64,000 nucleotides of DNA from a virus (IMGVR_UViG_3300046804_003518:1-64000); one strand, 5' to 3'. Positions 14,769-60,370 are shown, numbered from the stretch's first letter. Translations and numbers: made by a program. Notes: generated by a model from the letters alone, not told the origin.

Positions 14769-16150
14769 TGGCTACTGTAGCTACCTCTGCTATTATTAAA
14801 AAAGAGCAAATTGATCAATTTGCTTATAAAATTACTCTTGTCAAAAGAACCAATGGTGTCAATACAGAAATTGGTTTCAACACTTATGTTCGACATTTTA
14901 AGTTGTTTGAATCAGTATTTTCTAAATTTACTTACATTGAGGGATTGATTCTTGATGGTATGAATGTGGCTCAACGTTTTGGTATTCAACCAGGTGATGT
15001 TTTTAGAGTCGACATTTATAAAGACCCAAGCGATGTTGCCCCCCACGAAAGAATATCAAAGGATTTTATTATCCAAGATTTGGGTGGCCAAGAAAGATCA
15101 GAAGGCAATAAGGCTGCCAAGTATGCATTCAGAGCAATATCAGAAAGTGGCCATAGAGGTCTTAAAACTAAAGTCAAGAGAAGTTATAGAGGTAAGGGAT
15201 CAGCTATCGTTAATATAATGACTGGCCAATATGTAACTAAAGGTACATCAAAGCCAGCAATGCGTTGGGAATCAATTGGTAGTTATGGTGATATCAAGTA
15301 CGTTGTACCGTCGCTCACTCCGTTTGAAGCAATTGAAAATATTTCAAAACATTGCGTATCAGCATCTAATCCTAAAGATGGCAACTATTTCTTTTATGAA
15401 GTCAGAGATACTGTATACTTTAAGCCACTCAAGGCAATTGTGGCAGCTGCCAACAACCACAAGTATGCACTAACTGCTGATAAAAATAGAGCACCTGATA
15501 ATCAGGCAGCCAACGATTATTTCAGAGTGATTGAATTCCAGCATCATCAATCTACAGACCAACAAAAATTCCTACAAAGTGGAACACTATCAAACAAAGT
15601 GACAACATTTGATTTTATTACAAGAAAGATAACAGACAAGGGATTTGGCTTGCTTGGAATGAAACAAGATATTCTTCTTATGGGTGATAACCTACTAATG
15701 GATAACCAGGAAGTAAATCATTTTATACCTGGAAACAATGAAACGGATGAGCAAACAAATCTTTTCATTAGATGCTCCAGCGAAAGCTATAAAGATAGTA
15801 AGAAGGACAAAACGGTTGAAACCTTAACCAAAGCTAGACCTTATGCTCAAGCGCAAAAAGGATTAATGAATCAAACTGTTTTAACAATTAGCGTGTTGGG
15901 TAATCCTAGAATTAAGCCAGGTGATACAATTGAACTAGAAATGGCTCAGCCATCTGGTGACGTTGTGCAGGAAAAGGATTTTGTTTTGAGTGGTAAATTC
16001 TTTGTTGGTAGTTGTGCTCATTCAATAACAGACATGGATGATTATACAACAATTATTGAGTTATTCAAAGATGGTTATGAAAGAGATATAACACAATATA
16101 GAAAGGATATTAATAGTCTAAATGAATCTCAGCAAGTGAGTGGCACATAA
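14768..16150 (+). CDS. baseplate hub protein (gp27/GPD-like)
   Basis: Lies between gp53 and gp5; VLGNPRIKPGDTIEL...SGKFFVGSCAH motif. Confidence 0.7.
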   Translation: MATVATSAIIKKEQIDQFAYKITLVKRTNGVNTEIGFNTYVRHFKLFESVFSKFTYIEGLILDGMNVAQRFGIQPGDVFRVDIYKDPSDVAPHERISKDFIIQDLGGQERSEGNKAAKYAFRAISESGHRGLKTKVKRSYRGKGSAIVNIMTGQYVTKGTSKPAMRWESIGSYGDIKYVVPSLTPFEAIENISKHCVSASNPKDGNYFFYEVRDTVYFKPLKAIVAAANNHKYALTADKNRAPDNQAANDYFRVIEFQHHQSTDQQKFLQSGTLSNKVTTFDFITRKITDKGFGLLGMKQDILLMGDNLLMDNQEVNHFIPGNNETDEQTNLFIRCSSESYKDSKKDKTVETLTKARPYAQAQKGLMNQTVLTISVLGNPRIKPGDTIELEMAQPSGDVVQEKDFVLSGKFFVGSCAHSITDMDDYTTIIELFKDGYERDITQYRKDINSLNESQQVSGT

Positions 16151-18070: not shown

Positions 18071-18493
18071 ATGTCCAACTACGCCAAAACAACAGCAGCA
18101 TTTATTAAAAAGAATGCAAGATATTCTGACTTGAGTATTGCTCTTGGCGTCAACCCATTCTCTGGTGATCTTAACAGAGTTACAGATATAGATGCTGTAA
18201 AAAGATCAGTAAAGAATTTAGTTTTAACTGACAAATTTGAAAGGATTCTTGATCCTAACATTGGCGGCAATGTTAAGGCAATACTGTTTGAGCCAATGAC
18301 TCCTCTAACAGAAACTATCCTACAAGATTACATTACAGAAGTGATTGAAAACTATGAGCCAAGAGCTATTCTTGAAGATGTTGTGATAGACGCTAATTAC
18401 GACAACAATTCTTATATTGTAACAATTACATTCAGAATTGATACGTCAGAAGACCCACAAGTATTAACTTTTGCATTAGAAAGAGTAAGATAA
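18071..18493 (+). CDS. 25: baseplate wedge subunit (gp25)
   Basis: YSDL...DAVKRSVKNLVLT...IENYEPRA motif. Confidence 0.92.
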   Translation: MSNYAKTTAAFIKKNARYSDLSIALGVNPFSGDLNRVTDIDAVKRSVKNLVLTDKFERILDPNIGGNVKAILFEPMTPLTETILQDYITEVIENYEPRAILEDVVIDANYDNNSYIVTITFRIDTSEDPQVLTFALERVR

Positions 18494-18494
18494 T

Positions 18495-20294
18495 ATGGCT
18501 AATGGATTCCTTACAACTTCAGAACTAGATTTTTCAAACTATAAATCTAGCCTAAAGACTTTCTTATCCCAACAAGATATCTTCAAAGACTATAACTTTG
18601 AAGGCTCTAACATGGCCGTATTGCTTGATGTTTTAGCGTATAACACTTATCTTAATGGTGTGTATCTTAACATGGTTGGCAGTGAAATGTTTTTAGATAC
18701 CGCTGCATTGAGAGAATCAATTGTATCGCACGCCAAAGAACTAAATTACACTCCTCGTTCTAGAACAGCTGCAGCAGCATATGTTAATATTACTATTACT
18801 CCAGATGACAATCCTGACTCAATTACAATTCCAAAGTACTATCAAATTAACGGTGAGACAAAAGATAATACAACATATTTCTTCACTACTGATGAGGCAA
18901 TTGTAATTAGACCAGATAACGGTGTCTATCAGGCAGCTAATGTTGCAGTATATGAAGGAAACATTGTTAAGGAAGTATTTGTTGCCAATGCAACAGCTCG
19001 TTATTTACTACAATCTGCAAATGTTGATATTCAATCCCTTAATGTTACTATAAAAGACTCTGCCACATCTACAACAGAAACAAAGTGGAATAGAGAAACA
19101 TTTCTGTTTGGTTTAGACAACGCTGACAACGTGTACTTTGTACAAGGTGCCGAAGATCACATGTATGAAGTTGTGTTTGGTAATGGCGATATTGGTAAAG
19201 CACTTGTTGATGGTAATGTTATTACTATTACCTATAGAGAGACAAACGGCATTGATGCTAATGGCGTAGACATATTCTCAGCTCCAAACAGCATCCAAGG
19301 TTACCAAGGAGTTGGTGTAACAACAGTTCAATCTTCTGCTCAAGGATCCGAGCATGAAACTAATGATGAGATTAAGTTCAATGCTCCTCGCTACTTCCCA
19401 ACTCAAAATAGAGCAGTAACAGTAGAAGATTATATTGCATTAACAAAACAAGCATTCCCATCTCTTGAAATTGTTACAGCTTATGGTGGTGAAGAAACAG
19501 AACCAAAACAATACGGTAAAGTAATTGTTGCCGCCAAGCCAATTGGTGGTACAAAACTACCAACTCCGCTCAAGACACAAATTTACAATTTCTTAAAAGA
19601 AAGATCTGCCATATCAATTGATCCAGTTGTAATTGATCCAGAGTATTTCTTTGCTGAAGTTGTAACAGAGGTTCTCTATAATATCAACTTAACAACAAGA
19701 TCAGAAAGAGATATTGGAGCTCTAGTTGAAGAAACAGTCATGCAATGGGGTGATAATAACCTTGCTAAGTTTGGTTCTGATCTAAGATATTCAAAACTTG
19801 TCAAGGCTATTGATGATAGTGAAGCAGCCATCATTAGTAACAATACAAAAGTAAGAATTGTTAAGCATGTTGAGGTGGATACAGGTATTCCATTTAGAAT
19901 TGCTTTTTCGTTTGAGAATGAACTAGAACAAGAAGTTTTATCGGCCAGAAAAATTTACGAAGATACTACATCTACTATTGAGTCCTCATTATTCACTTAC
20001 AATTTAAACAATATTGATTACCTTGCTAAAATTAAAGATGACAGTCAGGGTAACCTAATGATTGTATCCACAGTTAACGGTGTTGTTCAGTTGTTGAAGG
20101 ACAAGGTTGGTACAGTTGACTATGCCACAGGTACAATTTCTATTGGTGCTGTAGTGTATGAAGATGTCGGCCTCAATAACGAATTAGAAATTTATGGCAG
20201 GACAAAGAAGTTAGATATTGAAACAAATGCGAATAAAGTTCTTCAAATAGAGGCAGGACATCTTGTTGTTTCTGTCCGTGGTATTAGAGAATAA
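18495..20294 (+). CDS. 6: baseplate wedge subunit (gp6)
   Basis: ELDF...DYNFEGSNMAVLLDVLAYNT...QNRAVTVEDY motif. Confidence 0.93.
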   Translation: MANGFLTTSELDFSNYKSSLKTFLSQQDIFKDYNFEGSNMAVLLDVLAYNTYLNGVYLNMVGSEMFLDTAALRESIVSHAKELNYTPRSRTAAAAYVNITITPDDNPDSITIPKYYQINGETKDNTTYFFTTDEAIVIRPDNGVYQAANVAVYEGNIVKEVFVANATARYLLQSANVDIQSLNVTIKDSATSTTETKWNRETFLFGLDNADNVYFVQGAEDHMYEVVFGNGDIGKALVDGNVITITYRETNGIDANGVDIFSAPNSIQGYQGVGVTTVQSSAQGSEHETNDEIKFNAPRYFPTQNRAVTVEDYIALTKQAFPSLEIVTAYGGEETEPKQYGKVIVAAKPIGGTKLPTPLKTQIYNFLKERSAISIDPVVIDPEYFFAEVVTEVLYNINLTTRSERDIGALVEETVMQWGDNNLAKFGSDLRYSKLVKAIDDSEAAIISNNTKVRIVKHVEVDTGIPFRIAFSFENELEQEVLSARKIYEDTTSTIESSLFTYNLNNIDYLAKIKDDSQGNLMIVSTVNGVVQLLKDKVGTVDYATGTISIGAVVYEDVGLNNELEIYGRTKKLDIETNANKVLQIEAGHLVVSVRGIRE

Positions 20295-22291
20295 TGAAAG
20301 AACTAGAAAAGTATATATCGCCATTCATTGCTAATCAATTCCCTTCTATCTATAAAGAGGAAGGTCCTCTATTCATTGCATTTGTAAAAGCTTACTTTGA
20401 GTGGCTTGAATCACAAGACCAGGTAATTTACGATTCAAGAAGACTTCTTGAATACAGAGATGTTGATAAGACAGTGGATGTCTTTATTAATAACTTTAAA
20501 AAGAAATATATGTTTCCTATTCCAGATGATATTGCTGGCGATAAGAGACTGCTGCAGAAGCATATTAAAGAAGTTTATGGCTCAAAAGGCACAGAGCGTG
20601 GGTTAAAGCTTCTATTCCAATTATTGTTTGCTGATAATATTAGCGTCTATAAGCCAGGTGATGATGTTCTTAGACTATCAGATGGCGAATGGAATAGAGA
20701 CATTTATCTAGAGGTTTCTTACAAACCCTACAATAGTTTATTTGTGGGTGAGTTTATTAAGGGCCGCATTTCTGGTGCAAGAGCATATGTCGAGAGCTTT
20801 CAGACTAAATTTGTTAACAATAAAAACATTAACGTCTTTTACTTAACAGACGTTGTTGGTAACTTCAGAAATGATGAGGTTGTAATTATTGATGAGGCAA
20901 GGTTAGCGGAGGGACAAGTACCAGCTGTTACAGCAATCAATTCTCCAAAGATTATTGGTTCCATGACAGAAGTGGATGTTGCCAATAGAAGTTCACCATT
21001 TGGTTATTCGGTTGGCGATATTTTGGAAGTCCAGGGTAAAGGCTCTCGCGGTAAAGTTGTAGTAACAAAACTTAAAGAATTGGATGGCACAATTACATTC
21101 AATCTTGAAGATGGAGGATCCGGTTACACAATTAATAATACAGTTTTTCTAATTAAGGGTCCTGTAACTGGTGTTGTGGTTGAGAATGGTGGAGTTGGTT
21201 ACTCAAATTCTGATTATATCGTATTCTCTAATGGAACTGCTAATGCAGTAGCCAATTTAGTAACTGATGGATCAGGTACTATTCTCAACAACACTGCTGG
21301 TGGTGATACCTTATTCACCATTACTCATGGTGGCAATGGATTTTTAACTACAAATGTATTCACCGTCTCGGTTACAGTTTCAAACTCAACTGGTGGTCCT
21401 TCTGCAGGTGCTGGTGCCAACCTTGTTCCTACAATTGCAGGCGGTGGCGATTTGGCAGGACTAAGAATTGGTGCATTGTCCAACATTAAGTATTTGTTTT
21501 CTTCGGCAGCTAAAATCAATCTTGTAGGCAAGTCCCTTAACTACATTGGTACAGCAAACAGTGTTGATAATATGCTTGTTGGTCAGTTGTCGTATCCTAC
21601 AGGTACAGGGTATGGCTTATCGTCAAACGTTGCCGCAGGTTTTGATACTATATTAAAGGATGCTTTAAACTATCAAAATTATGAAGTTGGTACAATCTCA
21701 AAAATCTTTACAACAAATCCTGGTCAAGATTATACTACAAATGTGCAGATTACAGTCACCGACACTATCATTGGTTTAATGGGTTTATTGGATAAGGAAC
21801 ATCCGGCGGGCCGTGGCGACACTGGTAATGGTTACCTAGGCAATAATGCAGTGGTAACGGGAGTCAGTGGTTTTGGTTCAACGGCTCTTGGTGAAGTTAA
21901 GGTTATTGATTCTGGTCTTGGTTATGAACAAAGAGAGGAAGCAACCCTTGTATCTCTATCAAATACAAACCTTATTACATCTGGCACAGTGTTACTAATG
22001 AAGCAAGGTCAGGGCGAAGGATTCTTTAAATCTACTCGTGGCTTTTTAAACTCTGACAAGTATATTCACGATAGTTATTATTATCAAGATTATTCATATG
22101 AAGTAAGATCGTCAGTAGTATTTAATAAGTATAGCGATCTTCTAAGAAAACTTTGGCACCCAGCTGGTGTGGAGAAGTTTGGTCGCGTGCTTGTAAGTAG
22201 TGAAGTAACATCTGCCACACCAGATGTTCTACAGCAGGCATACATAGGGGATGGGTCAACGACGTCGTTTGAAATCCCGGGTGGGGCATGA
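20294..22291 (+). CDS. 7: baseplate wedge initiator (gp7-like)
   Basis: IKEVYGSKGTERGLKLLFQLLF; DSYYYQDYSYEVRS...LWHPAG motif; follows gp6. Confidence 0.75.
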   Translation: MKELEKYISPFIANQFPSIYKEEGPLFIAFVKAYFEWLESQDQVIYDSRRLLEYRDVDKTVDVFINNFKKKYMFPIPDDIAGDKRLLQKHIKEVYGSKGTERGLKLLFQLLFADNISVYKPGDDVLRLSDGEWNRDIYLEVSYKPYNSLFVGEFIKGRISGARAYVESFQTKFVNNKNINVFYLTDVVGNFRNDEVVIIDEARLAEGQVPAVTAINSPKIIGSMTEVDVANRSSPFGYSVGDILEVQGKGSRGKVVVTKLKELDGTITFNLEDGGSGYTINNTVFLIKGPVTGVVVENGGVGYSNSDYIVFSNGTANAVANLVTDGSGTILNNTAGGDTLFTITHGGNGFLTTNVFTVSVTVSNSTGGPSAGAGANLVPTIAGGGDLAGLRIGALSNIKYLFSSAAKINLVGKSLNYIGTANSVDNMLVGQLSYPTGTGYGLSSNVAAGFDTILKDALNYQNYEVGTISKIFTTNPGQDYTTNVQITVTDTIIGLMGLLDKEHPAGRGDTGNGYLGNNAVVTGVSGFGSTALGEVKVIDSGLGYEQREEATLVSLSNTNLITSGTVLLMKQGQGEGFFKSTRGFLNSDKYIHDSYYYQDYSYEVRSSVVFNKYSDLLRKLWHPAGVEKFGRVLVSSEVTSATPDVLQQAYIGDGSTTSFEIPGGA

Positions 22292-25200
22292 GTACAATAG
22301 TTGTCAAAGTAAATGGAGTACTACAGGTACTAGGTACGGATTATACCGTCTCTGGTAACAATATTGTATTTGCCAATCCACCAGATGCAAATGCAAAAGT
22401 GGAGATTAGAAAGGAAGCAGCCAGAAGTGTTTTAGAGACAAGCTTCAAAATTGATCAGATCAGATTGACAGAACTTGTTACTGCATATAGCACACAAACA
22501 ACTGTATCTTCCACATTCAATACATCTATTGGCACAGGCACCACAACAGCGTTTGTCACTGCGTTCTCAACATCTAAGACAACAGATAGTGCAGTTCTTA
22601 CATCCAAGAACACAACAACAGCTTATATTTCTGTATTTGATACAGTATTCAATACAAGTAAGTCAACAACAACTCAATTTGTTACTGCCTACCAAACTGT
22701 ATTCAATACTATTTCAACATTTGATACAACAATTCTTACTTCATACGCCACAACAAAAACAACATCTACTGTATTTGAAACAACAGGTGTTACAAGTAAG
22801 TCAACTACTACAACATATAACACTATCGTCACAACTGTATACGATAGCAATAGAACAACTTCAACTGTTTATAGTACGGCCTATACAACAACGTTTACAA
22901 CCCAAACAGCATATGCAACAACAAGAAACACTGTATATGATACTATTGTTGCCACACTGACAAGCAAAAGCACAGACACAACAGTTGCAACATCAACAAG
23001 CATTAATACTGTATTTGTAACAGCTTATGGTACTACCACTGTATTTAATACAACAAAAGATACTAACCTTTCAACAGCAAAGTCGACAGACACAACTATT
23101 GCTACTTCAAAGGCAACAAATACAACAACTACATTTGCTACAATTTACGATACAACTGGTTCAACATCTAAAAATACAACAACTGCATTCTTAACTGTAT
23201 TTGATACAGCCAAGACAACATCAACTTTATTTGCAACAACATTTGATACAACGTTTGTTACAAATAAACTAACATCAACTAGCAAATCAACAACTTCTGT
23301 ATTCAACACAACAACCACATTTATTACAACATTTGATACTGGTTACGATACTAGTAAGTCAACAACATCGTTGTTTAATACGACAACAACATTCAATACA
23401 TCATATGCAACTAACTTTGCAACGACAACAGCATTTGAAACAAATGTAGCAACCCAAACCGCTGTATCACAAAATACTGCCAGAAATACAACTACAATAT
23501 TCAACACAGCAACAAGCAAATCAACTACAACAATATTCAACACAGCAACTACGTTTAATACAACGTATGCAACTAACTTTGCAACAACAACCTCGTTTGA
23601 AACTAATTTCATTACAGCAACAAACCGTGGAACAAGTAGAGCCACTGATACAACTGGCTCAACAAGTAGAGCAACAGGTACTTCAAGAGTAACCACAACT
23701 GTATTTAATACAACAACTGTATACGATACTGCAACAGCATTCCAAACAAGTACAATATTCCAAACACAGACAACCGCAGCTGGCTCAACAACATTCTTGA
23801 CAGCAAATGAAGTTACATTTCAAACCTTTACTATAAAGGGTACTGGTGCAAGTTACATTACAACGTACCAAACAAGCTATGATACAATTATTGGCTATGG
23901 TAAGGGTGGTTTACCAATCTATGGCCAGACATATTTCAATACATCGAAATCTACACAGCCTTTAACTGCGTTTTATTTCCAGACCACAGCTGTGGGTGTA
24001 ACTGTGACAACCTATGCAACTTACACATACCTACCTCAAGGGTTTGGTTATGTGTTTTTTGATACAACAAAACTAACAGCCACGGCAAGTAGACTTACAT
24101 CAAGAGGTACGACATTCTATTTTCAAACAGATACAAGTAGAAGTACAGACACATCTAGAGCCACAAGTACATCTAGAGCCACAAGTACGTCTGCATCAAC
24201 AACCACTGCATATGATACTTCAACAACGTTTGGCACTACGTATCAGACAACAACCTCGTTTGTAACGACCTTTGACACATTAACAATATTTGGTACATCT
24301 AAGAGCACAACAACAGTATTTGATACAGCAAGAAGTACTGCTGCTGCCACAAGCACAAGCGGATCAACTACATCTGTATTTGATACAGCAACGTCAGCTG
24401 TAACATCAACGACCTTTATTACTACCTATCTAGCAGCTACAACAACAGTATTTGTAACATCTAAGAGCACAACAACAGTCTTTGATACAGCAAAGGCCAC
24501 GAGTGCAGTAACTGCCACAAGTGCGGCCACATCCACTGCATTCAACACTCTTGTTTCAACTTCTAACACAACAAGTAGAGCAACAGCAACGAGCGTTGCC
24601 ACAACAACTGTATTTGATACATCTACAGCATATGATACAAACATTGCAACTGTAAGAGACACATCCAAGTCAACAGCTACAACATACGAAACTAATTTTG
24701 GCACAAGTGCTGTCACAGCAACAGTGTTTAATACTGTATATAACACGGTAGGAGCTACCCAAAAAGCAACTGCTACGACAACAGTCTTTAATACAGCATA
24801 CGCCACAACAACAACATTTGATACAGTATACCAAACCGTATTTAATACAAACAAAACAACCGATACTTCTATCAACACCTCAAGATCTACATTGGGTACA
24901 ACAGGATCTGTATATCAAACATCTACAGCATATAATACCCAAACAGCATTTGAAACAAACAGAAACACGGTATTTGACACTGTTGTGGCAACAGACACAT
25001 CTCGCGACACAATTATCTTAACATCTAAGAGCACAACAACATCATTTGAAACGGCAATTAATACTGGCTATGACACAAGCAAGTCTACAACATCCGTATT
25101 CAACACAGTATTCAATACTGCCAAAAATACAACCAGCGTATTTGACACAACAATTGATACTTCATATGCTACAACAAAAGCCACTGCAACATCAAAATTT

Positions 25201-28200
25201 ACAACAAATTTAACTGGAAGAAGTACAACCAGCAGCTTTGACACAGCTTATGCAACTGCAATTGCAACATCCAAAACTACATCAACTGCATTTATTACCG
25301 GGTATGATACAACAACTTTGTTTGATACTTCTACTCCTACAACAAGAAACACCCTTACTCAATCTGTTTACTCAACCACTTCAAGCACATTGAAGGGCAC
25401 TGATACTGCCATCTTAACAGAATATAGAATTCTCGCAACTCAAACATTGTTTAGTACTAAGTATGAAACCACATATGAAACAATTGCTGGTGTACTAACA
25501 ACAATTTCTACGGATGTTGTAACCAACAGAACAACTAATACTGCATACGCATTTGAAAGTAGAAATACGTTAAGGGATACTGCTTTTCAAACAACAAATC
25601 CAACATTGATTGCCACAACAACATTATTCCAAACATCATACAATACAAATCAGATCACACGCTTTGTTACACTTAACACTGCCTTTGGCACAAGTAAAAA
25701 TACATCAACAGTATTTGATAAAGCCACTACAACTGTATTTGCAACAATAAGTGCATTTGATACTGTAAAGACCACAGACTTCTCTACATCACGTAATACG
25801 TTAATTACTTCTTCAACAGCATTTGAAACAAGTAAGACAACTCTTGTAGCAACTGGTACATCTAGAACTACTACCTCTTCGTATCAGACAAATATAAACA
25901 CAGTGTTCAATACAGGATACGACACATCCAAGTCAACAACATCGTTATTTGTTACAGCATTTTTAACTGTCTCAACTTTTGAAACTAATAAGACAACCTC
26001 AAGAACAACAACGCTAACTAAGGGCACAGAAATTCTCACTTTCTTTGCTACATCTCAATCAACTGTTAAGCCAACAAGCACAACGCGATCAACAGTTTAT
26101 GTTAGTGACTTTGTCACCGTCTCCCGTACTACAACATTTGTAACAGGCACAAATGAAGTAACGTCATTTGATACTAAGAGGGGTACAAACATTGATACAG
26201 TGTTTGATAGCTCAACATCTTTCTTAACGAGCTTTAACACTACTCTTAATAAGACCACAACAGCAATTACTAATAAGAGTACAACTACAGGATTTGACAC
26301 TTTTGTTAACACATCAAAGGTAACTAATGTTGCAACATCCACAGATACGTTAACTTCATTCAATACAATAACTGGCTTTTTGACATCATTTGATACAAAC
26401 AAGACGACACAGAGTTCAAAATCAACTGTATTCAATACTGCGTTTGACACAACGTTTGCCACAACAAAGTCAACATCCACAAGTAGAAGTACAACCACAT
26501 CTACAAGTAAAAGTACCTCGACGGCATACGATACAACAAAGAGTACCGTTAATAATACGAGCACAACTTACCAAACCACATTCCAAACAGATTCTGGTGC
26601 CGGCACTCTACATAACACATCAGCTTTAACAACTGGTCTAACCGGTACTCTTACTTCTTCAGTTACAGTTAAGTTAACAACAGTTGACACAACTAAATCA
26701 ACAGAAACACAGTATCTGATGTCAAGTAGCTATGGGACAGGTACTGTATTTGAAACTGTTGTCGGTACAGCATACGAAACATCAACAGTATTTAATACGA
26801 CAACTGCATTTAATACTGATACAGTATTTAACACCACAACAACCTTTCAAACAGATTCTGGTAAGGGTACATTGAAGTCGACCTCTAAGTCTACTGCAAC
26901 AAGTTACGCTACTGGCACAAGTAAAAATACATCCACATCAAAAATAACATTAACAGCAAGTGGTACGTATTATATTTCTCAAAGAAATACTACATCTGCC
27001 TATGACACAACAAAAAATACAGCTGGTGGATTAACAAGTCGAGCCACAAGCACGTCAGACACCACAACAACTGTTTACCTAAGTGCCTATCAATCAAACA
27101 TTAACACGACAACAACATACTTGTCGTCATACTCAACTGTCATTGATACAAGCAGACAAACGCAAGCTCTTACATCATTTGGAACATCAAGAACTACAGA
27201 AACAATATTCCAAACTGCCGCTTTAGGTGGCACTCTATTCAATACAACAAAGAATACAACTACCGCATTTGATACAGTTTATCTCATTACACAATCTGTT
27301 GCCTCAACTGCTACCACATTTCAAACTGATTCTGGAGCTGGTACACTAAAGAATACATCTCAGAACACAATTACTGCGTATACAAGATTTGAAGGTGGTA
27401 AGCAGACGTCAACTGTATTCTCTACAGCGTTTGCTACAAATCCGTTTGTAACAACTGCATATGGCACATCTAGAACTACAACAACTGTATACCCAACAGT
27501 GTTTACAGAATTTGGTACATCTAAAGACACCACAACTACTTTCCAGACCGACTCAGGCGCTGGTACAATGAAGGCAACGTCAAAGGACACAGTAACAGCA
27601 TTTAATACAATCTATGCAACTGCCCCAGTAACATCAAAGTCAACAACCACATCATTTGACACCATTTATAGTACTGGTATACCAACAACAAGACAAACAG
27701 CCACATTGTTGACAACTGCTACTGCATATGCAACTGAAACTGCAAAAATTACTGGCTCAGGTAAAATTACACAATTTGCAACTACAACTACAATCAACAC
27801 TGATACAGCAAGAGGAACTTCAACTACATTCCAAACGGATTCTGGTAAAGGCACACTTCACAGCACGTCAAGAAATACTCTAACTGGTACATTGACATCA
27901 TTTAACACTACAACTTTAACAATTAGCGACATGCTAACAAGCAAGTCCACTAGCACTACAACAGACCAAGGAACTCTTGTTAATACATCTACAAGCACTT
28001 CTTATGCTACACAAACTGAGTATGCAACCTCAGGTGGTGCAACAGTATTTGGTACCTCAGTAACAACTGAGACAGTCATTGACTTTACAGTTAGAAACAC
28101 GGAATATCAAACGCTAACTTCTGTTGATACATTAACGTATTATGAATCAGGGGATAGACTAACTGCAAAAACTACAGCAATTTTAACTAACACAAATACA

Positions 28201-28395
28201 TCTCAAATTGTTAGAGATACAACAAGAACAACGTCAATTGATACAACGTATATCACAACCTTCTTGACAGACTCAGGCGCAGGTACAATGGTGTCAACAT
28301 CAAAGTCAACATCTAGAACAACTGACAAGATAACAAACACCGATTACGATACAGCAATTCAAACAACATATGAAACTGTTTATATAAATAACTAG
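22288..28395 (+). CDS. 2035 aa Thr-rich self-complementary beta-hairpin fibre protein
   Basis: T-x-T periodicity; mirrored 4/6 spacing with i+j=1109 verified in two windows; six F(Q/L)TDSG(A/K)GT turn motifs in the C-terminal part. Confidence 0.8.
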   Translation: MSTIVVKVNGVLQVLGTDYTVSGNNIVFANPPDANAKVEIRKEAARSVLETSFKIDQIRLTELVTAYSTQTTVSSTFNTSIGTGTTTAFVTAFSTSKTTDSAVLTSKNTTTAYISVFDTVFNTSKSTTTQFVTAYQTVFNTISTFDTTILTSYATTKTTSTVFETTGVTSKSTTTTYNTIVTTVYDSNRTTSTVYSTAYTTTFTTQTAYATTRNTVYDTIVATLTSKSTDTTVATSTSINTVFVTAYGTTTVFNTTKDTNLSTAKSTDTTIATSKATNTTTTFATIYDTTGSTSKNTTTAFLTVFDTAKTTSTLFATTFDTTFVTNKLTSTSKSTTSVFNTTTTFITTFDTGYDTSKSTTSLFNTTTTFNTSYATNFATTTAFETNVATQTAVSQNTARNTTTIFNTATSKSTTTIFNTATTFNTTYATNFATTTSFETNFITATNRGTSRATDTTGSTSRATGTSRVTTTVFNTTTVYDTATAFQTSTIFQTQTTAAGSTTFLTANEVTFQTFTIKGTGASYITTYQTSYDTIIGYGKGGLPIYGQTYFNTSKSTQPLTAFYFQTTAVGVTVTTYATYTYLPQGFGYVFFDTTKLTATASRLTSRGTTFYFQTDTSRSTDTSRATSTSRATSTSASTTTAYDTSTTFGTTYQTTTSFVTTFDTLTIFGTSKSTTTVFDTARSTAAATSTSGSTTSVFDTATSAVTSTTFITTYLAATTTVFVTSKSTTTVFDTAKATSAVTATSAATSTAFNTLVSTSNTTSRATATSVATTTVFDTSTAYDTNIATVRDTSKSTATTYETNFGTSAVTATVFNTVYNTVGATQKATATTTVFNTAYATTTTFDTVYQTVFNTNKTTDTSINTSRSTLGTTGSVYQTSTAYNTQTAFETNRNTVFDTVVATDTSRDTIILTSKSTTTSFETAINTGYDTSKSTTSVFNTVFNTAKNTTSVFDTTIDTSYATTKATATSKFTTNLTGRSTTSSFDTAYATAIATSKTTSTAFITGYDTTTLFDTSTPTTRNTLTQSVYSTTSSTLKGTDTAILTEYRILATQTLFSTKYETTYETIAGVLTTISTDVVTNRTTNTAYAFESRNTLRDTAFQTTNPTLIATTTLFQTSYNTNQITRFVTLNTAFGTSKNTSTVFDKATTTVFATISAFDTVKTTDFSTSRNTLITSSTAFETSKTTLVATGTSRTTTSSYQTNINTVFNTGYDTSKSTTSLFVTAFLTVSTFETNKTTSRTTTLTKGTEILTFFATSQSTVKPTSTTRSTVYVSDFVTVSRTTTFVTGTNEVTSFDTKRGTNIDTVFDSSTSFLTSFNTTLNKTTTAITNKSTTTGFDTFVNTSKVTNVATSTDTLTSFNTITGFLTSFDTNKTTQSSKSTVFNTAFDTTFATTKSTSTSRSTTTSTSKSTSTAYDTTKSTVNNTSTTYQTTFQTDSGAGTLHNTSALTTGLTGTLTSSVTVKLTTVDTTKSTETQYLMSSSYGTGTVFETVVGTAYETSTVFNTTTAFNTDTVFNTTTTFQTDSGKGTLKSTSKSTATSYATGTSKNTSTSKITLTASGTYYISQRNTTSAYDTTKNTAGGLTSRATSTSDTTTTVYLSAYQSNINTTTTYLSSYSTVIDTSRQTQALTSFGTSRTTETIFQTAALGGTLFNTTKNTTTAFDTVYLITQSVASTATTFQTDSGAGTLKNTSQNTITAYTRFEGGKQTSTVFSTAFATNPFVTTAYGTSRTTTTVYPTVFTEFGTSKDTTTTFQTDSGAGTMKATSKDTVTAFNTIYATAPVTSKSTTTSFDTIYSTGIPTTRQTATLLTTATAYATETAKITGSGKITQFATTTTINTDTARGTSTTFQTDSGKGTLHSTSRNTLTGTLTSFNTTTLTISDMLTSKSTSTTTDQGTLVNTSTSTSYATQTEYATSGGATVFGTSVTTETVIDFTVRNTEYQTLTSVDTLTYYESGDRLTAKTTAILTNTNTSQIVRDTTRTTSIDTTYITTFLTDSGAGTMVSTSKSTSRTTDKITNTDYDTAIQTTYETVYINN
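28383..28390 (+). promoter_or_regulatory. T4-type late promoter embedded in the last codons (YINN) of the Thr-rich gene
   Basis: TATAAATA upstream of the gp8-like gene. Confidence 0.7.
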
Positions 28396-28417: not shown

Positions 28418-30469
28418 ATGTTAACCAAATTTAAAAGAAATGTTGTTGACTTATTCATAGATTCTGTTGCCAATACGCTGAGCTTAGATCTTTCTGGCAC
28501 AGTAACAGTCAACACCTCATCAGCCAATGTCACAGGTTCAGGTACTAATTTTACTGTAGACTTTACGGTAGATGATCGTTTGTTTATTGGTTCTGAGTCA
28601 AGACAAGTTATTTCTATTGTCAATAATACATTAATGACTGTGGCCTCGGCATATTCTGCCAATGCGACAGCAAACACATATAAAAAAGGTAGATTGAAAA
28701 ACGATAGTTATTACGTTTTTGCTGCAAGACAGTCACCGTTTGAAAATGAGGCTGTTGCAGCTAATACAATTGATGATAATTATGAATCTCATATCTTCAT
28801 CCATGATGAATTAATGTTTGGTATGAAGATTACAAACGAAGATGTGCTACCAATGGTTGCCAAAAAGCAATGGCAGGCCAACACAATCTATGCCATTTAT
28901 GATGATAAAGACCAAGATTTACCAGCAAAAACCTTTCATGTAATAACAGCAGAAAACAAAGTATATAAGTGTATTCACAATCACCTTGGTGGCATCTCAG
29001 AGGTTGAACCATCCCACACAGAGCTTGGCTATCCACCTGAAGAGTCAGATGGCTATAGATGGATGTATCTCTACACAATCAACAACATTGATTACCTAAC
29101 ATATGCCACAGAAAATTACATTCCTATCATTGAAAATGCTAACGTAAAAAATGCTGCAATTGATGGGTCCATATTTAACATTACTGTTGAGGCTAATGGA
29201 TCATCATATCCAGCTGACAGCGGTACTATTAAGACGGATCCAAATGGCAACAATTATATTATCCAAATCAGAACTGGTACATCTACCTCAAACGATTTCT
29301 TTGCTAACTGTGCAATTACAATTACAAACGACTCCACAAATTTAACATATGTGAAGGAAATTCGTGACTATGTTTCAAATGGAGTTGGTAACTTTGTTAT
29401 CTTGAAAATTCCATTTACAACTGGTCAAGTTTCAAACAACAACCCATATTCAATTGGCCCATATATTAAAATTGATTCTAAGACAGGATCAAATTGTATA
29501 GCCTCAGCAGTAATGCAAAATATTTCAAATACCAACTTTACTGGTAGTATTGAAATGGTGGATATTATTAATCCAGGTAAAAACTACAAACAAGCAAATG
29601 TCTCCGTACAGACATCAACTGGTTTTGGTAGTGGAGCTAGGGTTAGAGCCATTTTGTCACCACCTGGCGGCCATGGTTCTAATGTCAAGGATGAGTTGTA
29701 TTGTCAATCTGTTGGTATTGGTGTTGTATTCTCAAATACAGCAACATTTTCCTTTTCGTCGGATGTGGAATTTAGAACAGTTGGTATATTGAAAAACCCA
29801 CTTTCCGCTAACACAATTGATGGAACTGGAACAGTTGACCTAGTAGCTAATAGTTTGAGTGTTGCAGGAGTTGGAACTAAGTTTACAAACGAACTTAATA
29901 TTGGTGACCATATCATCTACTTAGATGAAGAAAAAGAAGTTGTTTCAATTGCCAATAACACTAGCCTGACACTCAAAACACCATTCTCATATACTGTTGT
30001 GGCAGAATCATTTGATATTAGAAAAAGATTCTTCAATTCCTTTTTCAACCAAACGGTCGATGTAGCTGCATCTAATACAACCCCTGCGTTGCTGCAACCT
30101 GGTGAGTATATATTGGGGTCTGATGGCGCCGGTGGCGGATCTCAGGTTCAAGCTAAAGTTGCATTTGCTAATACATCCAAGGTCATTTTAACAGGTCTTG
30201 ATAAGACGCAGGCACGCGGTAATAATAGTGTTGTAACTTTTGTTAATGATACAGTTATGGATGGTGTTGGTTATGTGGTAAATGGTGCTGATACGCCAAC
30301 AATACCTGCATCGGGAGCTAAATACTCTAAGACGGCAGGTAATACATATATTACGACGGTTCCAGATTTAAAATTGTATTCTGGCGAAGTTTTATATCTA
30401 CAAAACTTGCTACCAATACAAAGATCAAACACAACAAACGAACAAATTAGACTAGTAGTTAAGTTCTGA
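28418..30469 (+). CDS. 8: baseplate wedge subunit (gp8-like)
   Basis: WQANTIYAIYDD...VYKCIHN...DGYRWMYLYTI...ILSPPGGHGS motifs. Confidence 0.8.
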   Translation: MLTKFKRNVVDLFIDSVANTLSLDLSGTVTVNTSSANVTGSGTNFTVDFTVDDRLFIGSESRQVISIVNNTLMTVASAYSANATANTYKKGRLKNDSYYVFAARQSPFENEAVAANTIDDNYESHIFIHDELMFGMKITNEDVLPMVAKKQWQANTIYAIYDDKDQDLPAKTFHVITAENKVYKCIHNHLGGISEVEPSHTELGYPPEESDGYRWMYLYTINNIDYLTYATENYIPIIENANVKNAAIDGSIFNITVEANGSSYPADSGTIKTDPNGNNYIIQIRTGTSTSNDFFANCAITITNDSTNLTYVKEIRDYVSNGVGNFVILKIPFTTGQVSNNNPYSIGPYIKIDSKTGSNCIASAVMQNISNTNFTGSIEMVDIINPGKNYKQANVSVQTSTGFGSGARVRAILSPPGGHGSNVKDELYCQSVGIGVVFSNTATFSFSSDVEFRTVGILKNPLSANTIDGTGTVDLVANSLSVAGVGTKFTNELNIGDHIIYLDEEKEVVSIANNTSLTLKTPFSYTVVAESFDIRKRFFNSFFNQTVDVAASNTTPALLQPGEYILGSDGAGGGSQVQAKVAFANTSKVILTGLDKTQARGNNSVVTFVNDTVMDGVGYVVNGADTPTIPASGAKYSKTAGNTYITTVPDLKLYSGEVLYLQNLLPIQRSNTTNEQIRLVVKF

Positions 30470-36308: not shown

Positions 36309-36321
36309 TTGAGGAACAGCA

Positions 36322-56410: not shown

Positions 56411-59400
56411 ATGCCAGGTAAATTATTCTTTAATGACAACGGCACTCTGAGAGAAGCCGAAATTCTGAAAGTCAACGATGGCGGTATTCTACGTACCGTT
56501 AGGGATGCCTATGTTAATCAGAATGGTGTTCTAAGGCAAATTTACTCTGCTACAAAAGATACATCATACGAAACTTCTAGATCAACTGTATTTGAGACAG
56601 TCATTGTCACGACATTTGATACAACAATTTCAACAAATAGAAATACAACAACTGCTTTTGTGACGTTGTTTGAAACTGGCTATGATACAAGCAAGGCAAC
56701 TGCAACAAATAGAAACACTTCTACATCCAGAGCAACTGCCTACGCTACAACAAGAACAACTGCAACTGTATTTCAAACTTTAACCGTATTTGAAACAACA
56801 ATTGGTACTAATAGAGTAACATCAACCTCTAGGGCTACCACGACAAGTTTCCTCACTAACACTGTATTTGAAACAACTATCAATACAGCAAGAAATACTG
56901 CAACTTCTAGAGCTACCACAACAATATTTATTACAAACACTGTATTTGAAACAACTATCAATACAGCAAGAAATACTGCAACCTCAAAATCAACTGCAAC
57001 GGTATTTGACACCAATACAGTATTTGATACAACAATTAATACAGCAAGAAATACTGCAACAAGCAGAAGTACAGATTCTGTATTTGATACTGTAATTGGC
57101 ACAAATAGAACTACTCTATCTGTATTCAATACCGTTACGGCGTTTCAAACAACAACGGCGTTTGAAACTGCTTATGCTACAACCACAGTATTCAATACGA
57201 CAACTACGTTTGATACGGTAATTGATACTGCTCGTAATACAGCAACCACAAGATCTACAACCACTGCTTATGACACTGGGTATGATACAAGTAAGATAAC
57301 AAATACAGTATTCAATACTGGTACAATAAAAGATACCGTTATTGACACATCTAGATCTACTGCAACAAGTATAGCTACAACAACTGTCTTCCAGACGGCC
57401 TATGCTACAAGCAGAGCCACAGCAACTAGCAGATCTACAGATACTACAATTGATACATCTAGAGCTACAGCAACTAGCAGATCCACAGATACTACAATTG
57501 ATACATCTAGAGCAACGGCTACCTCTAGAGCAACTGACACAACAATTGTTACATCTAGGTTGACAGATACGTCTCAATCTACCACAACAACATTTAACAC
57601 AACAACGACGTTTGACACTGCTTACGCAACGACGACGACGTTTAATACTACAACTACGTTTGACACAGCATATGCTACGACAACAACGTTTAATACCACA
57701 ACTACGTTTGATACTATAATTGCAACAACAAGAGCAACAGACACTTCAAGATCAACCACTACTACGTTCCAAACAACGACAGTATTTCAAACAACTACTA
57801 CATTCCAAACAACAACTACGTTTAACACTATTACAACTTATATCACCTCTCTAGGTGGTAACACTGTATTCCAAACAACAACTACGTTTAATACTATTAC
57901 AACGTATATTACCACTCTTGTTGCTGGAACAACTAGAGCAACTGACACTTCAAGATCAACTACTACCACGTTCCAGACAACGACTGTATTTAATACAATC
58001 ACAACGTATATTACTACTCTTGTTAATGCAACTTCAAGAGCAACCGATACATCTAGAGCCACAACTACAACATTCCAGACTACAACTACATTTGGTACTA
58101 CGTTCTTCTTTAATACAAGTAAGGCAACAACATTCTACTTCAATACAACAACTACATTTGGTACTACGTTCTTCTTTAATACAAGTAAGGCAACTACGTT
58201 TTACTTCAACACATCTGTTATTACAACAACAACATTTATTACGTCAGCTGTTGGTCTTACAACGTTTATTACAACGGCTGTTGCTGGTACAAGTAAGGCA
58301 ACGACGTTCTACTTTAACACAACATACATCACAACAGCCGCTGCTGCAACCTCTAAGGCTACAACATTCTACTTTAACACAAGTGTTGGTGGTACTACAT
58401 ATTTCAGCTCAGGGTTCATAACAACATTCTACACAGTGATTGGTATAGCCTATTACAAATGGTGGTCAAACCAGTACTTTGGCAATACAACCAGAGCCAC
58501 ATCTGTAATTACATCCAAGGCTACAACATTCTACTTTGGCACAAGTGCTGGTGGTACTACCTACTTTAATACAACATTCTACTTTAATACAGTTAGAGGT
58601 ACCAGTGCTGGTGGTACTACTTTCTTCAACACTACCTTTTATTTCAATACGTCTAGAAACACGACGTTCTACTTTAACACAGCTAGAGCAACAACATCTA
58701 CCTTTATCACAACTCTAGGTGGTATCACAACATTCATTACAACTCTAGGTGGTACAACATCTAGAGCAACAGGTACTTCAGTTGGTGGTATTACTACATT
58801 TATTACAACATTGGGTGGTACAACATCTAGAGCAACAGATACGTCTAGAGCAACTACAACCACATTCCAAACAACAACAACGTTTAACACTACGTTCTTT
58901 TTTAATACAACTCTTGCTACAGCCACTTCTAGAGCAACAGATACGTCTAGAGCAACAACTACAACATTTCAGACAACAACTGCATTCAACACAACATTCT
59001 TCTTTAATACAACTCTAGCAACTGCAACTTCTAGAGCAACTGATACGTCTAGAGCAACTACGTTCTTCTTTAATACTACTTTGGCCACGGCAACAAGTAG
59101 AGCAACCGATACATCTAGAGTAACTGATACTTCTAGAGCTACTGACACATCTAGAGCTACAACAACAGTTTTCCAAACAACAACAACGTTTGAGACTGCC
59201 TATGCTACAAGCAGAGCTACCGCAACCAGCAGATCTACTGACACAACAATTAGCACATCTAGAGCTACTGCAACAAGTAGAGCAACAGATACAACAATTA
59301 GCACATCTAGAGCTACTGCAACAAGTAGAGCTACAACTACTGTCTTCCAGACAACAACAGCATTTAATACAGCTTATGCTACAACAACGGTATTTGATAC

Positions 59401-60370
59401 TACAACAACATTTGCTACTGCATATGCAACCACAACAATATTCAACACAACTACAACATTTGCTACTGCATATGCTACAACAACGGTATTCAATACAACG
59501 ACAACATTCGACACTGTAATTGATACAAACAAGTCAACTACTTCAGTATTCAATACAACCACAACATTTGCTACTGCCTACCAAACATCAGATGTTAAGT
59601 CAACTAACTTTGATACATCAACTGCCTATAACACTCTTGTTGGTACAAGCAAGTCAACAATATCAACATTTGATACATCTACTACATTTCAGACAGCTTA
59701 TGCAACAAATAGAGTTACTGCTACAGATAGATCAACCGACACTATAATTGGCACTTCTAGAGCAACTGAGACATCTAGAAATACAGCTACTGATAGAAAT
59801 ACCGTAACGGCATTTGAAACTGCATATGCTACAAACATTGCAACAACAACCGTATTTGATACATCAACAACATTTGAAACTTCTTATGCTACTGGTAGAA
59901 ACACATCAACCAACCGTTTAACGACATCGGTGTTTGATACATCAACAACATTTGAAACGACGTATGATACAAACTTTGATACACTAACCAACCGTTCAAC
60001 AACATCGGTATTTGATACATCAACAACATTTGAAACAACTTATAATACAAACTTTGATACACTTACAAGCCGCTCAACAACGTCTGTATTTGATACAACA
60101 ACATCATTTGAAACGACGTATGACACAAATATCCTTACATCAACTTCAAGAAATACAGTATCAACATTTGATACCGAGATTGTAACTGTATTTGATACTG
60201 TAACGGTATTCAATACAACAACATCTTACGACTCGCAATATGGCACAGACCGTGCAACAAGTAAGACAACAACTTCTGTGTTCAATACAGCCTATGCTAC
60301 AAATCGCAATACGGCATTCAACACATCACAAAACACAACATTCAATACAACTATCGAAACATACTTCTAA
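56411..60370 (+). CDS. 1319 aa Thr-rich self-complementary beta-hairpin fibre protein
   Basis: Mirror register i+j=1368 verified at residues 49-173/1195-1319 and 583-673/695-785; apex IAYYKWWSNQY. Confidence 0.85.
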   Translation: MPGKLFFNDNGTLREAEILKVNDGGILRTVRDAYVNQNGVLRQIYSATKDTSYETSRSTVFETVIVTTFDTTISTNRNTTTAFVTLFETGYDTSKATATNRNTSTSRATAYATTRTTATVFQTLTVFETTIGTNRVTSTSRATTTSFLTNTVFETTINTARNTATSRATTTIFITNTVFETTINTARNTATSKSTATVFDTNTVFDTTINTARNTATSRSTDSVFDTVIGTNRTTLSVFNTVTAFQTTTAFETAYATTTVFNTTTTFDTVIDTARNTATTRSTTTAYDTGYDTSKITNTVFNTGTIKDTVIDTSRSTATSIATTTVFQTAYATSRATATSRSTDTTIDTSRATATSRSTDTTIDTSRATATSRATDTTIVTSRLTDTSQSTTTTFNTTTTFDTAYATTTTFNTTTTFDTAYATTTTFNTTTTFDTIIATTRATDTSRSTTTTFQTTTVFQTTTTFQTTTTFNTITTYITSLGGNTVFQTTTTFNTITTYITTLVAGTTRATDTSRSTTTTFQTTTVFNTITTYITTLVNATSRATDTSRATTTTFQTTTTFGTTFFFNTSKATTFYFNTTTTFGTTFFFNTSKATTFYFNTSVITTTTFITSAVGLTTFITTAVAGTSKATTFYFNTTYITTAAAATSKATTFYFNTSVGGTTYFSSGFITTFYTVIGIAYYKWWSNQYFGNTTRATSVITSKATTFYFGTSAGGTTYFNTTFYFNTVRGTSAGGTTFFNTTFYFNTSRNTTFYFNTARATTSTFITTLGGITTFITTLGGTTSRATGTSVGGITTFITTLGGTTSRATDTSRATTTTFQTTTTFNTTFFFNTTLATATSRATDTSRATTTTFQTTTAFNTTFFFNTTLATATSRATDTSRATTFFFNTTLATATSRATDTSRVTDTSRATDTSRATTTVFQTTTTFETAYATSRATATSRSTDTTISTSRATATSRATDTTISTSRATATSRATTTVFQTTTAFNTAYATTTVFDTTTTFATAYATTTIFNTTTTFATAYATTTVFNTTTTFDTVIDTNKSTTSVFNTTTTFATAYQTSDVKSTNFDTSTAYNTLVGTSKSTISTFDTSTTFQTAYATNRVTATDRSTDTIIGTSRATETSRNTATDRNTVTAFETAYATNIATTTVFDTSTTFETSYATGRNTSTNRLTTSVFDTSTTFETTYDTNFDTLTNRSTTSVFDTSTTFETTYNTNFDTLTSRSTTSVFDTTTSFETTYDTNILTSTSRNTVSTFDTEIVTVFDTVTVFNTTTSYDSQYGTDRATSKTTTSVFNTAYATNRNTAFNTSQNTTFNTTIETYF
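56858..57080 (+). repeat. 78-bp coding tandem repeat (about 3 copies), N arm
   Basis: Units start at 56858, 56936 and 57014; the first two share 47 identical nt. Confidence 0.85.
59924..60130 (+). repeat. 78-bp coding tandem repeat (about 3 copies), C arm
   Basis: Units start at 59924, 60002 and 60080 (TSVFDTSTTFETTYxTNFDTLTxRST). Confidence 0.85.

What the first reader, a model, noticed from the sequence alone, without database searches (positions are those of the whole stretch)
22288..25420. Second giant zipper fibre, encoded inside the baseplate operon, with a branched two-loop tip
Seen in sequence: register i+j=1109 holds in two independent windows. Residues 97-171 vs 938-1012 have gaps 6,4,6,4,4,4,6,4,4,6,4,4,4,6,4,4 on both arms (K97-F1012, K107-F, Y113-K, F131-R). 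Residues 399-491 vs 618-710 have gaps 6,6,6,6,6,4,6,4,6,4,6,4,4,6,6,6,6 on both arms (F491-R618). The stem would be about 430 residues per strand (~140 nm). Residues 492-617 form a cap with two Gly/aromatic loops (IIGYGKGGLPIYGQ and YTYLPQGFGYVFF). The gene lies between gp7 and gp8, implying baseplate attachment. Two paralogues with different tips indicate a family of self-complementary Thr-zipper fibres.
Basis: partly seen in the sequence, partly recalled or inferred. Interest (0 to 1): 0.9.

Follow-up and report, generated by a model that had tools for sequence, protein, structure and literature searches.

The report
Giant mirror-symmetric hairpin fibre on gp7
A 2035-residue, one-third-threonine phage protein encoded between baseplate genes gp7 and gp8 folds back on itself as an antiparallel two-strand ribbon about 410 residues per strand, a fibre design matched by no Pfam, PHROG or PDB entry.

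Summary
The ORF is 22288-28395 (2035 aa); 25420 is only its midpoint. Register i+j=1109 is the best of all mirror registers. It runs without a break from residues 82-491 to 618-1027. Its score is 67, against 18-20 (maximum 26) for unit-shuffled copies and 22 or less for ordinary proteins.

One face alternates Thr-Thr rungs with rungs that hold an aromatic. All 45 Lys/Arg rungs face Phe/Tyr, and none faces another base. A 70%-identical orthologue carries a 54-residue insertion on each arm at mirror positions. Two further matched indel pairs occur in relatives.

In Stenotrophomonas phage DLP_6-like phages the same module is the C-terminal extension of gp7 itself. Here it is a separate gene, and one small T7-fibre-type domain is split across the gp7/fibre gene boundary. 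The 126-residue cap evolves about four times faster than the stems, which suggests a binding tip.

Structure prediction mostly failed. Oligomeric state, true length, the "two-loop" tip and presence in virions remain untested. This scan also noted a 1319-aa paralogue in the same window. I rate it a new variant of a phage fibre, possibly a new fibrous fold.

The parts
20294..22291 (+). gp7 N-terminal-half homologue (665 aa). Its stop codon overlaps the fibre gene's ATG.
   Evidence: phrog_17744 baseplate wedge subunit, E 1e-143. PF23786. 43-50% identical to residues 1-518 of DLP_6 gp7.
22223..22288 (+). Last ~22 residues of gp7-N (..QQAYIGDGSTTSFEIPGGA). This is the first strand of a T7-fibre-N-terminal-type (PF03906-like) domain whose remainder lies in the next gene.
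   Evidence: The gp7 tail plus the fibre N-terminus aligns as one uninterrupted copy of the repeat domain of P0021-P0030. Those repeats hit PF03906 above its cut-off. The same split is present in orthologue L002.
22288..22291 (+). ATGA stop/start overlap (GTGA in the orthologue). It is preceded by GGTGGGG and by the heptamer C_CCG_GGT at 22276-22282.
   Evidence: The junction is reproduced without an indel in contigs of three other public runs.
22288..28395 (+). The whole fibre gene, 2035 aa, 33% Thr (P0002).
   Evidence: dN/dS against the orthologue is 0.11-0.23 outside the cap.
22288..22422 (+). Residues 1-45: the remaining strands of the split PF03906-like adaptor domain.
   Evidence: phmmer hits to repeat domains of collagen/PF03906 proteins.
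22531..23760 (+). Arm 1 of hairpin 1, residues 82-491.
   Evidence: Mirror register 1109.
23761..24138 (+). Cap, residues 492-617. It is aromatic- and Gly-rich, has no single mirror register, and is the fastest-evolving part.
   Evidence: 20% F/Y/W and 10% Gly. 25% identity to the orthologue against ~70% in the stems, and dN/dS 0.56. No clear sub-hairpins.
24139..25368 (+). Arm 2 of hairpin 1, residues 618-1027.
   Evidence: Mirror register 1109. The 54-residue insertion in the orthologue lies at the mirror position of the arm-1 insertion.
25666..26559 (+). Hairpin 2, residues ~1127-1424, register i+j=2551, with a tight turn at 1275/1276. Weaker evidence than hairpin 1.
   Evidence: Score 27, just above the shuffle maximum of 26. 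The predicted register is again the top one in the orthologue, but its score of 12 lies within noise.
26560..28392 (+). C-terminal third, with six F(Q/L)TDSG(A/K)GT motifs. Some sit at the tips of short hairpins with arms of 20-55 residues.
28418..30469 (+). gp8-like baseplate wedge gene (context).
   Evidence: phrog_438, E 1e-71. Weak PF09215 hit.
56411..60370 (+). Paralogous Thr-rich hairpin protein (1319 aa, 37% Thr), register i+j=1368, spanning nearly the whole chain.
   Evidence: Mirror score 96.

Best explanation
The gene encodes a baseplate-anchored fibre built as a very long antiparallel two-strand beta-ribbon.

Shown:
- Residues 82-491 and 618-1027 are mirror images in the spacing of their side-chain classes.
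- On one face, Thr-Thr rungs alternate with rungs that hold an aromatic residue. Every Lys/Arg faces Phe/Tyr.
- The other face carries only small, polar or acidic residues.
- Insertions and deletions occur in equal size at mirror positions on both arms.
- The pairing face is the most conserved part, and the 126-residue cap is the least conserved.
- The module is homologous to the C-terminal extension of gp7 in DLP_6-like phages.

Inferred:
- The chain leaves the baseplate wedge, runs out about 410 residues, forms a small aromatic/Gly-rich tip domain and zips back on itself. Cross-strand Thr-Thr and aromatic-cation pairs hold it together.
- It is anchored one-to-one to gp7. The last strand of gp7-N completes the fibre's incomplete N-terminal T7-fibre-type domain, either in trans or through a frameshift fusion.
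- The variable tip contacts the host surface, so the fibre would act in adsorption or host range.
- The chain then forms a second, shorter hairpin and several short ones.
- One copy per wedge, that is a monomeric ribbon, is my preferred stoichiometry, but it was not tested.
For: Register. 1109 is the top register (z 10.3) and is continuous. The score is 67, against 18-20 for shuffles (maximum 26) and 22 or less for other proteins. Thr alone gives the same register.

Pairing rule. Of 50 landmark pairs, 45 are aromatic-basic, 5 aromatic-aromatic and none basic-basic; random pairing gives 24.8 +/- 3.5. The orthologue shows 52 aromatic-basic and no basic-basic pairs.

Compensatory indels:
- Orthologue L002: +54 aa after residues 410/418 and +54 aa after 692/701. 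The mirror of 410 is 699.
- gp7-fused family: +10 at 930 with +10 at 1017, and -4 at 937 with -4 at 1007, where the register is 1949.

Other support:
- Six rungs occur in both aromatic-basic orientations among homologues.
- dN/dS is 0.08 on the pairing face, 0.21 on the other face, 0.13-0.17 on the arms and 0.56 on the cap.
- Homology to gp7 C-terminal extensions, each with its own mirror register.
- Split adaptor domain.
- The AlphaFold2 model of a family member is of low confidence. It still gives uninterrupted strands of 32-49 residues whose ends coincide with mirror partners: 28+566 and 136+458 both equal 594.
- T4 gp7 is a monomer with 6 copies per tail (PMC3004832).
Against: - There is no confident 3D model. 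AF2 gave pLDDT 26 for the window's own tip region and 35 for a relative.
- Nothing shows that the protein is in virions or even expressed. The phage is known only from a freshwater metagenome.
- An isolated two-strand ribbon of this length has no precedent that I know of. A higher-order assembly may be needed.
- The N-terminal domain type occurs in trimeric fibres (T7 gp17, collagen-containing proteins), which argues against a monomer.
- The role of the tip rests only on its fast divergence.
- Hairpin 2 is barely above noise and scores within noise in the orthologue.
Confidence: 0.75

Rival explanations
1. The same hairpin, but three chains assemble into a six-stranded needle like the tip of T4 long-tail-fibre protein gp37. 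The small-residue face would line the axis. The fibre would be a trimer docked on the wedge.
For: - In gp37 the chain also runs out and back (D10 = residues 811-881 plus 1010-1026), and the needle is a trimer (PMC6957217).
- The N-terminal domain type belongs to trimeric fibres. PF03906 occurs next to collagen repeats in P0021, P0022 and P0025.
- The face made of S/T/A/V/N/D residues is small enough for a narrow core.
Against: - In relatives the module is part of gp7, which in T4 is a monomer with one copy per wedge.
- The split adaptor domain implies one gp7 strand per fibre chain.
- The presumed core face is the less conserved one (dN/dS 0.21 against 0.08).
- There are only 2 His in 2035 residues, so no HxH metal sites.
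Confidence: 0.3
2. gp7-N and the fibre are made as one polypeptide by a programmed -1 ribosomal frameshift at C_CCG_GGT (22276-22282). This would recreate a fused gp7-hairpin protein like that of DLP_6. Anchoring would then be covalent rather than by strand complementation.
For: - One domain is split exactly at the gene boundary.
- The fibre frame is -1 relative to gp7-N.
- The heptamer fits the X_XXY_YYZ pattern and lies inside the only 19 nt where a shift could work.
- That stretch shows no listed variant in divergent contigs.
- Relatives have the fused form.
Against: - The heptamer is CCCAGGT in the orthologue.
- A start codon (ATG or GTG) and a GGTGGGG Shine-Dalgarno-like run are kept at the right spacing. 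These features are typical of ordinary translational coupling.
- Gene callers independently start fragments P0019 and P0020 at this Met.
Confidence: 0.3
3. The ribbon does not project towards the host. It lies along the baseplate or the tail sheath as a strap, brace or spacer.
For: - The length is similar to that of a tail.
- One face is basic and aromatic and the other acidic and small, which could suit lateral packing on another surface.
- Both ends of hairpin 1 return to the base.
Against: - The part farthest from the anchor is the fast-evolving one. This is typical of host-contact tips, not of internal braces.
- Arm length varies from about 180 to 480 residues among relatives. That is hard to fit to a fixed docking surface.
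Confidence: 0.12
4. It is a beta-solenoid or beta-helix, or a disordered, possibly glycosylated, Thr-rich spacer. The mirror pattern would be a by-product of tandem repeats.
For: - Direct periodicities of 14, 18 and 32 residues exist.
- Thr-x-Thr ladders occur in insect antifreeze beta-helices (my own knowledge).
Against: - Shuffling the same repeat units destroys the mirror signal.
- The order of 4- and 6-residue units is irregular along an arm but is copied in reverse on the other arm.
- The pairing rule holds, and indels are compensated.
- One face is under strong purifying selection.
- AF2 gives strands of 32-49 residues, not short coils.
Confidence: 0.04

Closest known systems
C-terminal extension of gp7 (baseplate wedge subunit) of Stenotrophomonas phage DLP_6 and about 18 metagenomic relatives (P0003-P0018, P0024, P0035, P0036)
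   Same: - Homologous Thr-rich module with the same unit grammar.
- Each has its own mirror register. The arms start near residue 705 and end about 45 residues before the C-terminus.
- Same baseplate gene order: gp25, gp6, gp7, gp8, then a VrlC-like gene.
   Different: - There the module is fused to gp7, follows a ~130-residue inserted domain and has arms of about 180-265 residues.
- Here it is a separate 2035-aa gene with a split adaptor domain and arms of 410 residues, followed by a further ~1000 residues.
- The hairpin in those proteins is not mentioned in the passages on baseplate, fibre and gp7 that I retrieved from the DLP6 paper (PMC5349666).
Needle (domains D10-D11) of T4 long-tail-fibre protein gp37
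   Same: - The chain runs out to a receptor-binding tip and returns antiparallel to itself.
- The tip is rich in aromatic residues and Gly (PMC6957217).
   Different: - gp37 arms are about 70 residues. The needle is a trimer held by seven His-bound iron ions.
- Here the arms are 410 residues, there are no His motifs, the oligomeric state is unknown, and no sequence or fold match was found.
T7 tail-fibre N-terminal domain (PF03906)
   Same: The fibre's first 42 residues plus the gp7-N tail match the repeat unit of proteins that hit PF03906. The role would be attachment, as in T7 gp17 (my own knowledge).
   Different: The window's own sequence gives no direct Pfam hit. The domain is divided between two genes.
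Single-layer beta-sheet proteins and designed beta-hairpins stabilised by cross-strand Thr and aromatic-Lys pairs (OspA, tryptophan zippers); named from my own knowledge, not tested here
   Same: Cross-strand aromatic-cation and Thr-Thr pairs on a solvent-accessible face.
   Different: Those structures span tens of residues, not hundreds. No homology is implied.

Membership tests
gp7-C-terminal Thr-rich hairpin module (DLP_6-like phages) | Sequence homology to the Thr-rich part of those gp7 proteins | tested here: met
   E 4e-24 to 3e-4 against 16 such proteins. BLASTP alignments cover the stems, and for P0003 also the cap.
gp7-C-terminal Thr-rich hairpin module (DLP_6-like phages) | A mirror register of its own, with equal arms | tested here: met
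   The window protein scores 67, the orthologue 79, and family members mostly 29-66 (one, P0017, only 19). Backgrounds are 22 or less.
T4 gp7 baseplate wedge subunit (PF23786 / phrog_17744) | The gp7 core domain lies in the same polypeptide | tested here: not met
   P0002 has no Pfam or PHROG hit. The core lies in the upstream ORF 20294-22291.
T4 gp37-type needle | The chain runs out and back in antiparallel fashion | tested here: met
   Mirror register and compensatory indels.
T4 gp37-type needle | HxH iron-binding motifs and homology to the collar domain | tested here: not met
   2 His in 2035 aa. No PDB or Pfam match.
T4 gp37-type needle | Homotrimer | not testable with these tools
   The single multimer job gave no answer.
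T7 tail-fibre N-terminal domain (PF03906) | Pfam match above the gathering score | tested here: not met
   Residues 1-91 give no PF03906 hit.
T7 tail-fibre N-terminal domain (PF03906) | Homology through intermediates that do match PF03906 | tested here: met
   phmmer hits to P0021, P0022 and P0025 (E 1.7e-15 to 1e-8). Their repeats hit PF03906 at 46-66 bits against a cut-off of 25.2. The alignment runs across the gene junction.
Beta-solenoid / Thr-ladder beta-helix | Coils of constant length seen as a dominant direct repeat | tested here: not met
   The best direct-repeat score is 31 against a mirror score of 67. The unit order is irregular.
Disordered Ser/Thr-rich (mucin-like) linker | No position-specific constraint | tested here: not met
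   dN/dS is 0.08 on the pairing face. Thr columns are invariant across the family.

The most novel reading that the evidence does not exclude
A new class of fibrous protein: a single polypeptide that zips on itself into a two-strand beta-ribbon more than 100 nm long. Its register is written in a simple residue code (Thr opposite Thr, aromatic opposite Lys/Arg) and kept by concerted duplications on both arms, much like an RNA stem. One such filament would hang from each baseplate wedge and carry a variable host-binding tip. It would be docked to gp7 by donor-strand completion of a domain split between two genes.
Probability: 0.35. Interest if true: 0.9.

Novelty: new variant of a known kind. 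Interest (0 to 1): 0.82.

Why it matters
Phage fibres solved so far are parallel trimers: triple beta-helices, beta-spirals and coiled coils. The short gp37 needle is the only out-and-back example I know.

Here the sequence alone specifies an antiparallel register over about 820 paired residues (410 per arm). The pairing rule is readable, and indel compensation resembles covariation in an RNA helix.

If confirmed, this would give:
- a new way to build long thin protein rods, of interest for protein design;
- an unrecognised appendage on the baseplates of a T4-like clade that includes a cultured Stenotrophomonas phage, which makes it directly testable;
- a likely host-range determinant with a modular, swappable tip;
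- a possible case of donor-strand docking, or of a frameshift fusion, between a wedge protein and its fibre.

The mirror-score test used here is simple enough to scan whole viromes for further members.

Tried and rejected
- AlphaFold2 on residues 300-810, with P0003 as the only aligned relative: pLDDT 26 and no secondary structure. Uninformative.
- Multimer job: three copies of residues 1196-1355. Verdict 'no answer', score 0.00, fold uncertain. No evidence either way.
- Foldseek of the low-confidence P0011 model against the PDB: nothing below E 1.
- PDB sequence searches with P0001, P0006 and P0023: no relevant hit.
- Pfam and PHROGs on the whole protein: no family.
- tblastn against 50,697 phage records: no match, probably because of low-complexity filtering. 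megablast of the neighbouring genes: no match.
- ESM Atlas by features: best score 0.86, unnamed viral clusters, below the useful range.
- Metagenome scan: only the L002 lineage again.
- Sequencing runs: no RNA holder listed.
- Laid contigs of four runs were short fragments broken by the repeats. They served only to confirm the junction sequence.
- Literature searches (threonine-rich + baseplate, Thr-rich + tail fiber, single-layer beta-sheet + phage) found no description. The library is incomplete.
- Sub-hairpins inside the cap: several weak, competing registers and none convincing.
- phiM12 gp7 and the Rhizobium phage RHph_I1_18 gene downstream of gp6: no hairpin.
Full report
**What is there**

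The ORF starting at 22288 does not end at 25420. It runs to 28395 and encodes 2035 residues. Thr is 33% along the whole length. There is almost no Pro (12), His (2) or Cys (0). Composition has a strong two-residue periodicity, with extra peaks at 4, 10, 14 and 18 residues.

The neighbouring genes are a T4-type baseplate module:
- gp5-like, 16150-18027
- gp25, 18071-18493
- gp6, 18495-20294
- a 665-aa homologue of the N-terminal half of gp7, 20294-22291
- the Thr-rich gene
- gp8-like, 28418-30469
- a 1942-aa VrlC/DUF4815 protein

The closest named phage is Stenotrophomonas phage DLP_6, with 47% identity in gp6. The window comes from a freshwater metagenome.

**Check of the observation**

I used F/Y/W/K/R as landmarks and scored every register i+j=c.
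- Register 1109 is the best of all: 57 matches against 15.9 expected (z 10.3; next best 5.9).
- The match is one unbroken segment, 82-491 against 618-1027, with score 67.
- Thr alone picks the same register: 130 matches against 62.8 expected.
- Shuffling the protein's own repeat units gives a best mirror score of 18-20, maximum 26.
- About 170 other phage ORFs and gp7 homologues score 22 or less.

The second series is off by two residues in its middle, but the register is right.

**A pairing rule**

Read in register, one face of the ribbon alternates Thr-Thr rungs (107) with rungs that contain an aromatic residue.
- Of 50 landmark pairs, 45 are aromatic-basic, 5 aromatic-aromatic and none basic-basic. 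Random pairing gives 24.8 +/- 3.5 aromatic-basic pairs.
- Aromatics without a basic partner nearly all face Ile/Val/Leu, Gly/Ala or Asn/Gln (one faces Thr).
- The other face holds S, T, A, V, N and D, with no Lys/Arg and one aromatic.

**Evolutionary tests**

An IMG/VR contig (L002) carries an orthologue of 2103 aa with 70% identity, in the same gene order.
- Its own top register is 1197, with score 79.
- Against the window protein it has 54 extra residues after 410/418 and 54 extra after 692/701. The mirror of 410 is 699. Each insertion is a local tandem duplication.

In the gp7-fused family (register 1949 in DLP_6 gp7) two further matched pairs occur:
- +10 after residue 930 with +10 after residue 1017;
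- -4 at residue 937 with -4 at residue 1007.

Six rungs occur in both aromatic-basic orientations among homologues.

dN/dS against the orthologue:

| Region | dN/dS |
|---|---|
| Pairing face | 0.08 |
| Other face | 0.21 |
| Arms | 0.13-0.17 |
| Cap | 0.56 |

dS is near saturation, so these ratios are approximate.

These results fit direct cross-strand contact. They are hard to explain by repeats alone.

**Relatives**

The only sequence relatives are gp7 proteins of DLP_6 and about 18 metagenomic phages, 1244-1416 aa long.
- Their first ~520 residues match the window's gp7-N.
- Their C-terminal ~600 residues are the same Thr-rich module. Each has its own mirror register, starting near residue 705 and ending about 45 residues before the C-terminus.
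- Among 103 further gp7 homologues, only two more have the module.
- phiM12 gp7 lacks it.
- The window also holds a paralogue at 56411-60370 with mirror score 96. This scan noted it separately.

**Anchoring**

The last ~22 residues of gp7-N and the first 42 of the fibre together align as one uninterrupted copy of a repeat domain found in proteins P0021-P0030. In those proteins the domain hits PF03906, the T7 tail-fibre N-terminal domain, next to collagen repeats.
- The split is conserved in the orthologue.
- The junction sequence is reproduced without an indel in contigs of three other runs.

Two readings fit.
- **Two chains.** They are coupled by the ATGA overlap, and the gp7 strand completes the fibre's domain in trans.
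- **A -1 frameshift.** It would occur at C_CCG_GGT (22276-22282) and give a fusion. The heptamer is not conserved in the orthologue, whereas a start codon and a Shine-Dalgarno-like run are.

I therefore favour two chains, at about 60:40.

**Rest of the protein**

- Register 2551 (about 1127-1424, with a tight turn at 1275/1276) scores 27, just above the shuffle maximum of 26. It is again the top register in the orthologue, but with a score within noise.
- Some of the six DSG(A/K)GT motifs sit at the tips of short hairpins.

**Structure prediction**

- AF2 failed on the window's tip region (pLDDT 26).
- With a 19-sequence alignment of a family member it gave pLDDT 35. It predicted uninterrupted strands of 32-49 residues. 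The strand ends coincide with the mirror partners: 28+566 and 136+458 both equal the expected 594. This is weak but independent support for a ribbon rather than a solenoid.
- No fold or sequence match exists in the PDB.

**Interpretation**

The most likely reading is a baseplate fibre made of a self-zipped two-strand ribbon with a fast-evolving tip, anchored to gp7.

T4 gp7 is a monomer with six copies per tail (PMC3004832). The module is fused to gp7 in relatives, and the adaptor is split one-to-one. For these reasons I lean towards one chain per wedge. A gp37-like trimer (PMC6957217) is not excluded.

Still inferred only: length, stiffness, oligomeric state, presence in the virion and tip function.

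Noticed in passing
window 22223-22422: One PF03906-like domain is divided between the end of gp7-N and the start of the fibre gene, and the same split is kept in the orthologue. The heptamer C_CCG_GGT, inside the only 19 nt where a -1 shift could join the two frames, shows no listed variant in divergent contigs.
   Followed up: partly
window 56411-60370: Paralogous 1319-aa protein with 37% Thr. Nearly the whole chain is one hairpin (register 1368, mirror score 96). Its N-terminal ~48 residues differ from those of the fibre studied here.
   Followed up: partly
L001 17780-21646 (DLP_6 gp7, P0006 residues ~580-705): A ~130-residue insert that is not Thr-rich and has no Pfam match sits just before the hairpin. 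The short Thr-rich stretch before it (532-571) may pair with the C-terminal tail (1244-1283). Register 1815 scores 25.5 there, with no null computed.
   Followed up: partly
window 26560-28392: Six F(Q/L)TDSG(A/K)GT motifs. The ones at residues 1523 and 1681 lie at the centre of local mirror registers with arms of about 45-55 residues. The other four show little or none.
   Followed up: partly
window 49054-52164 and 55051-56151: Two further ORFs (17% Thr) with tail-fibre PHROG hits. The first has a strong 15-residue direct repeat at residues 731-831 (score 26) and no mirror signal.
   Followed up: no
window 30480-38031: VrlC/DUF4815-like giant protein (1942 aa) followed by a 569-aa relative of the same PHROG. 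DLP_6 and phiM12 have the same pair.
   Followed up: no
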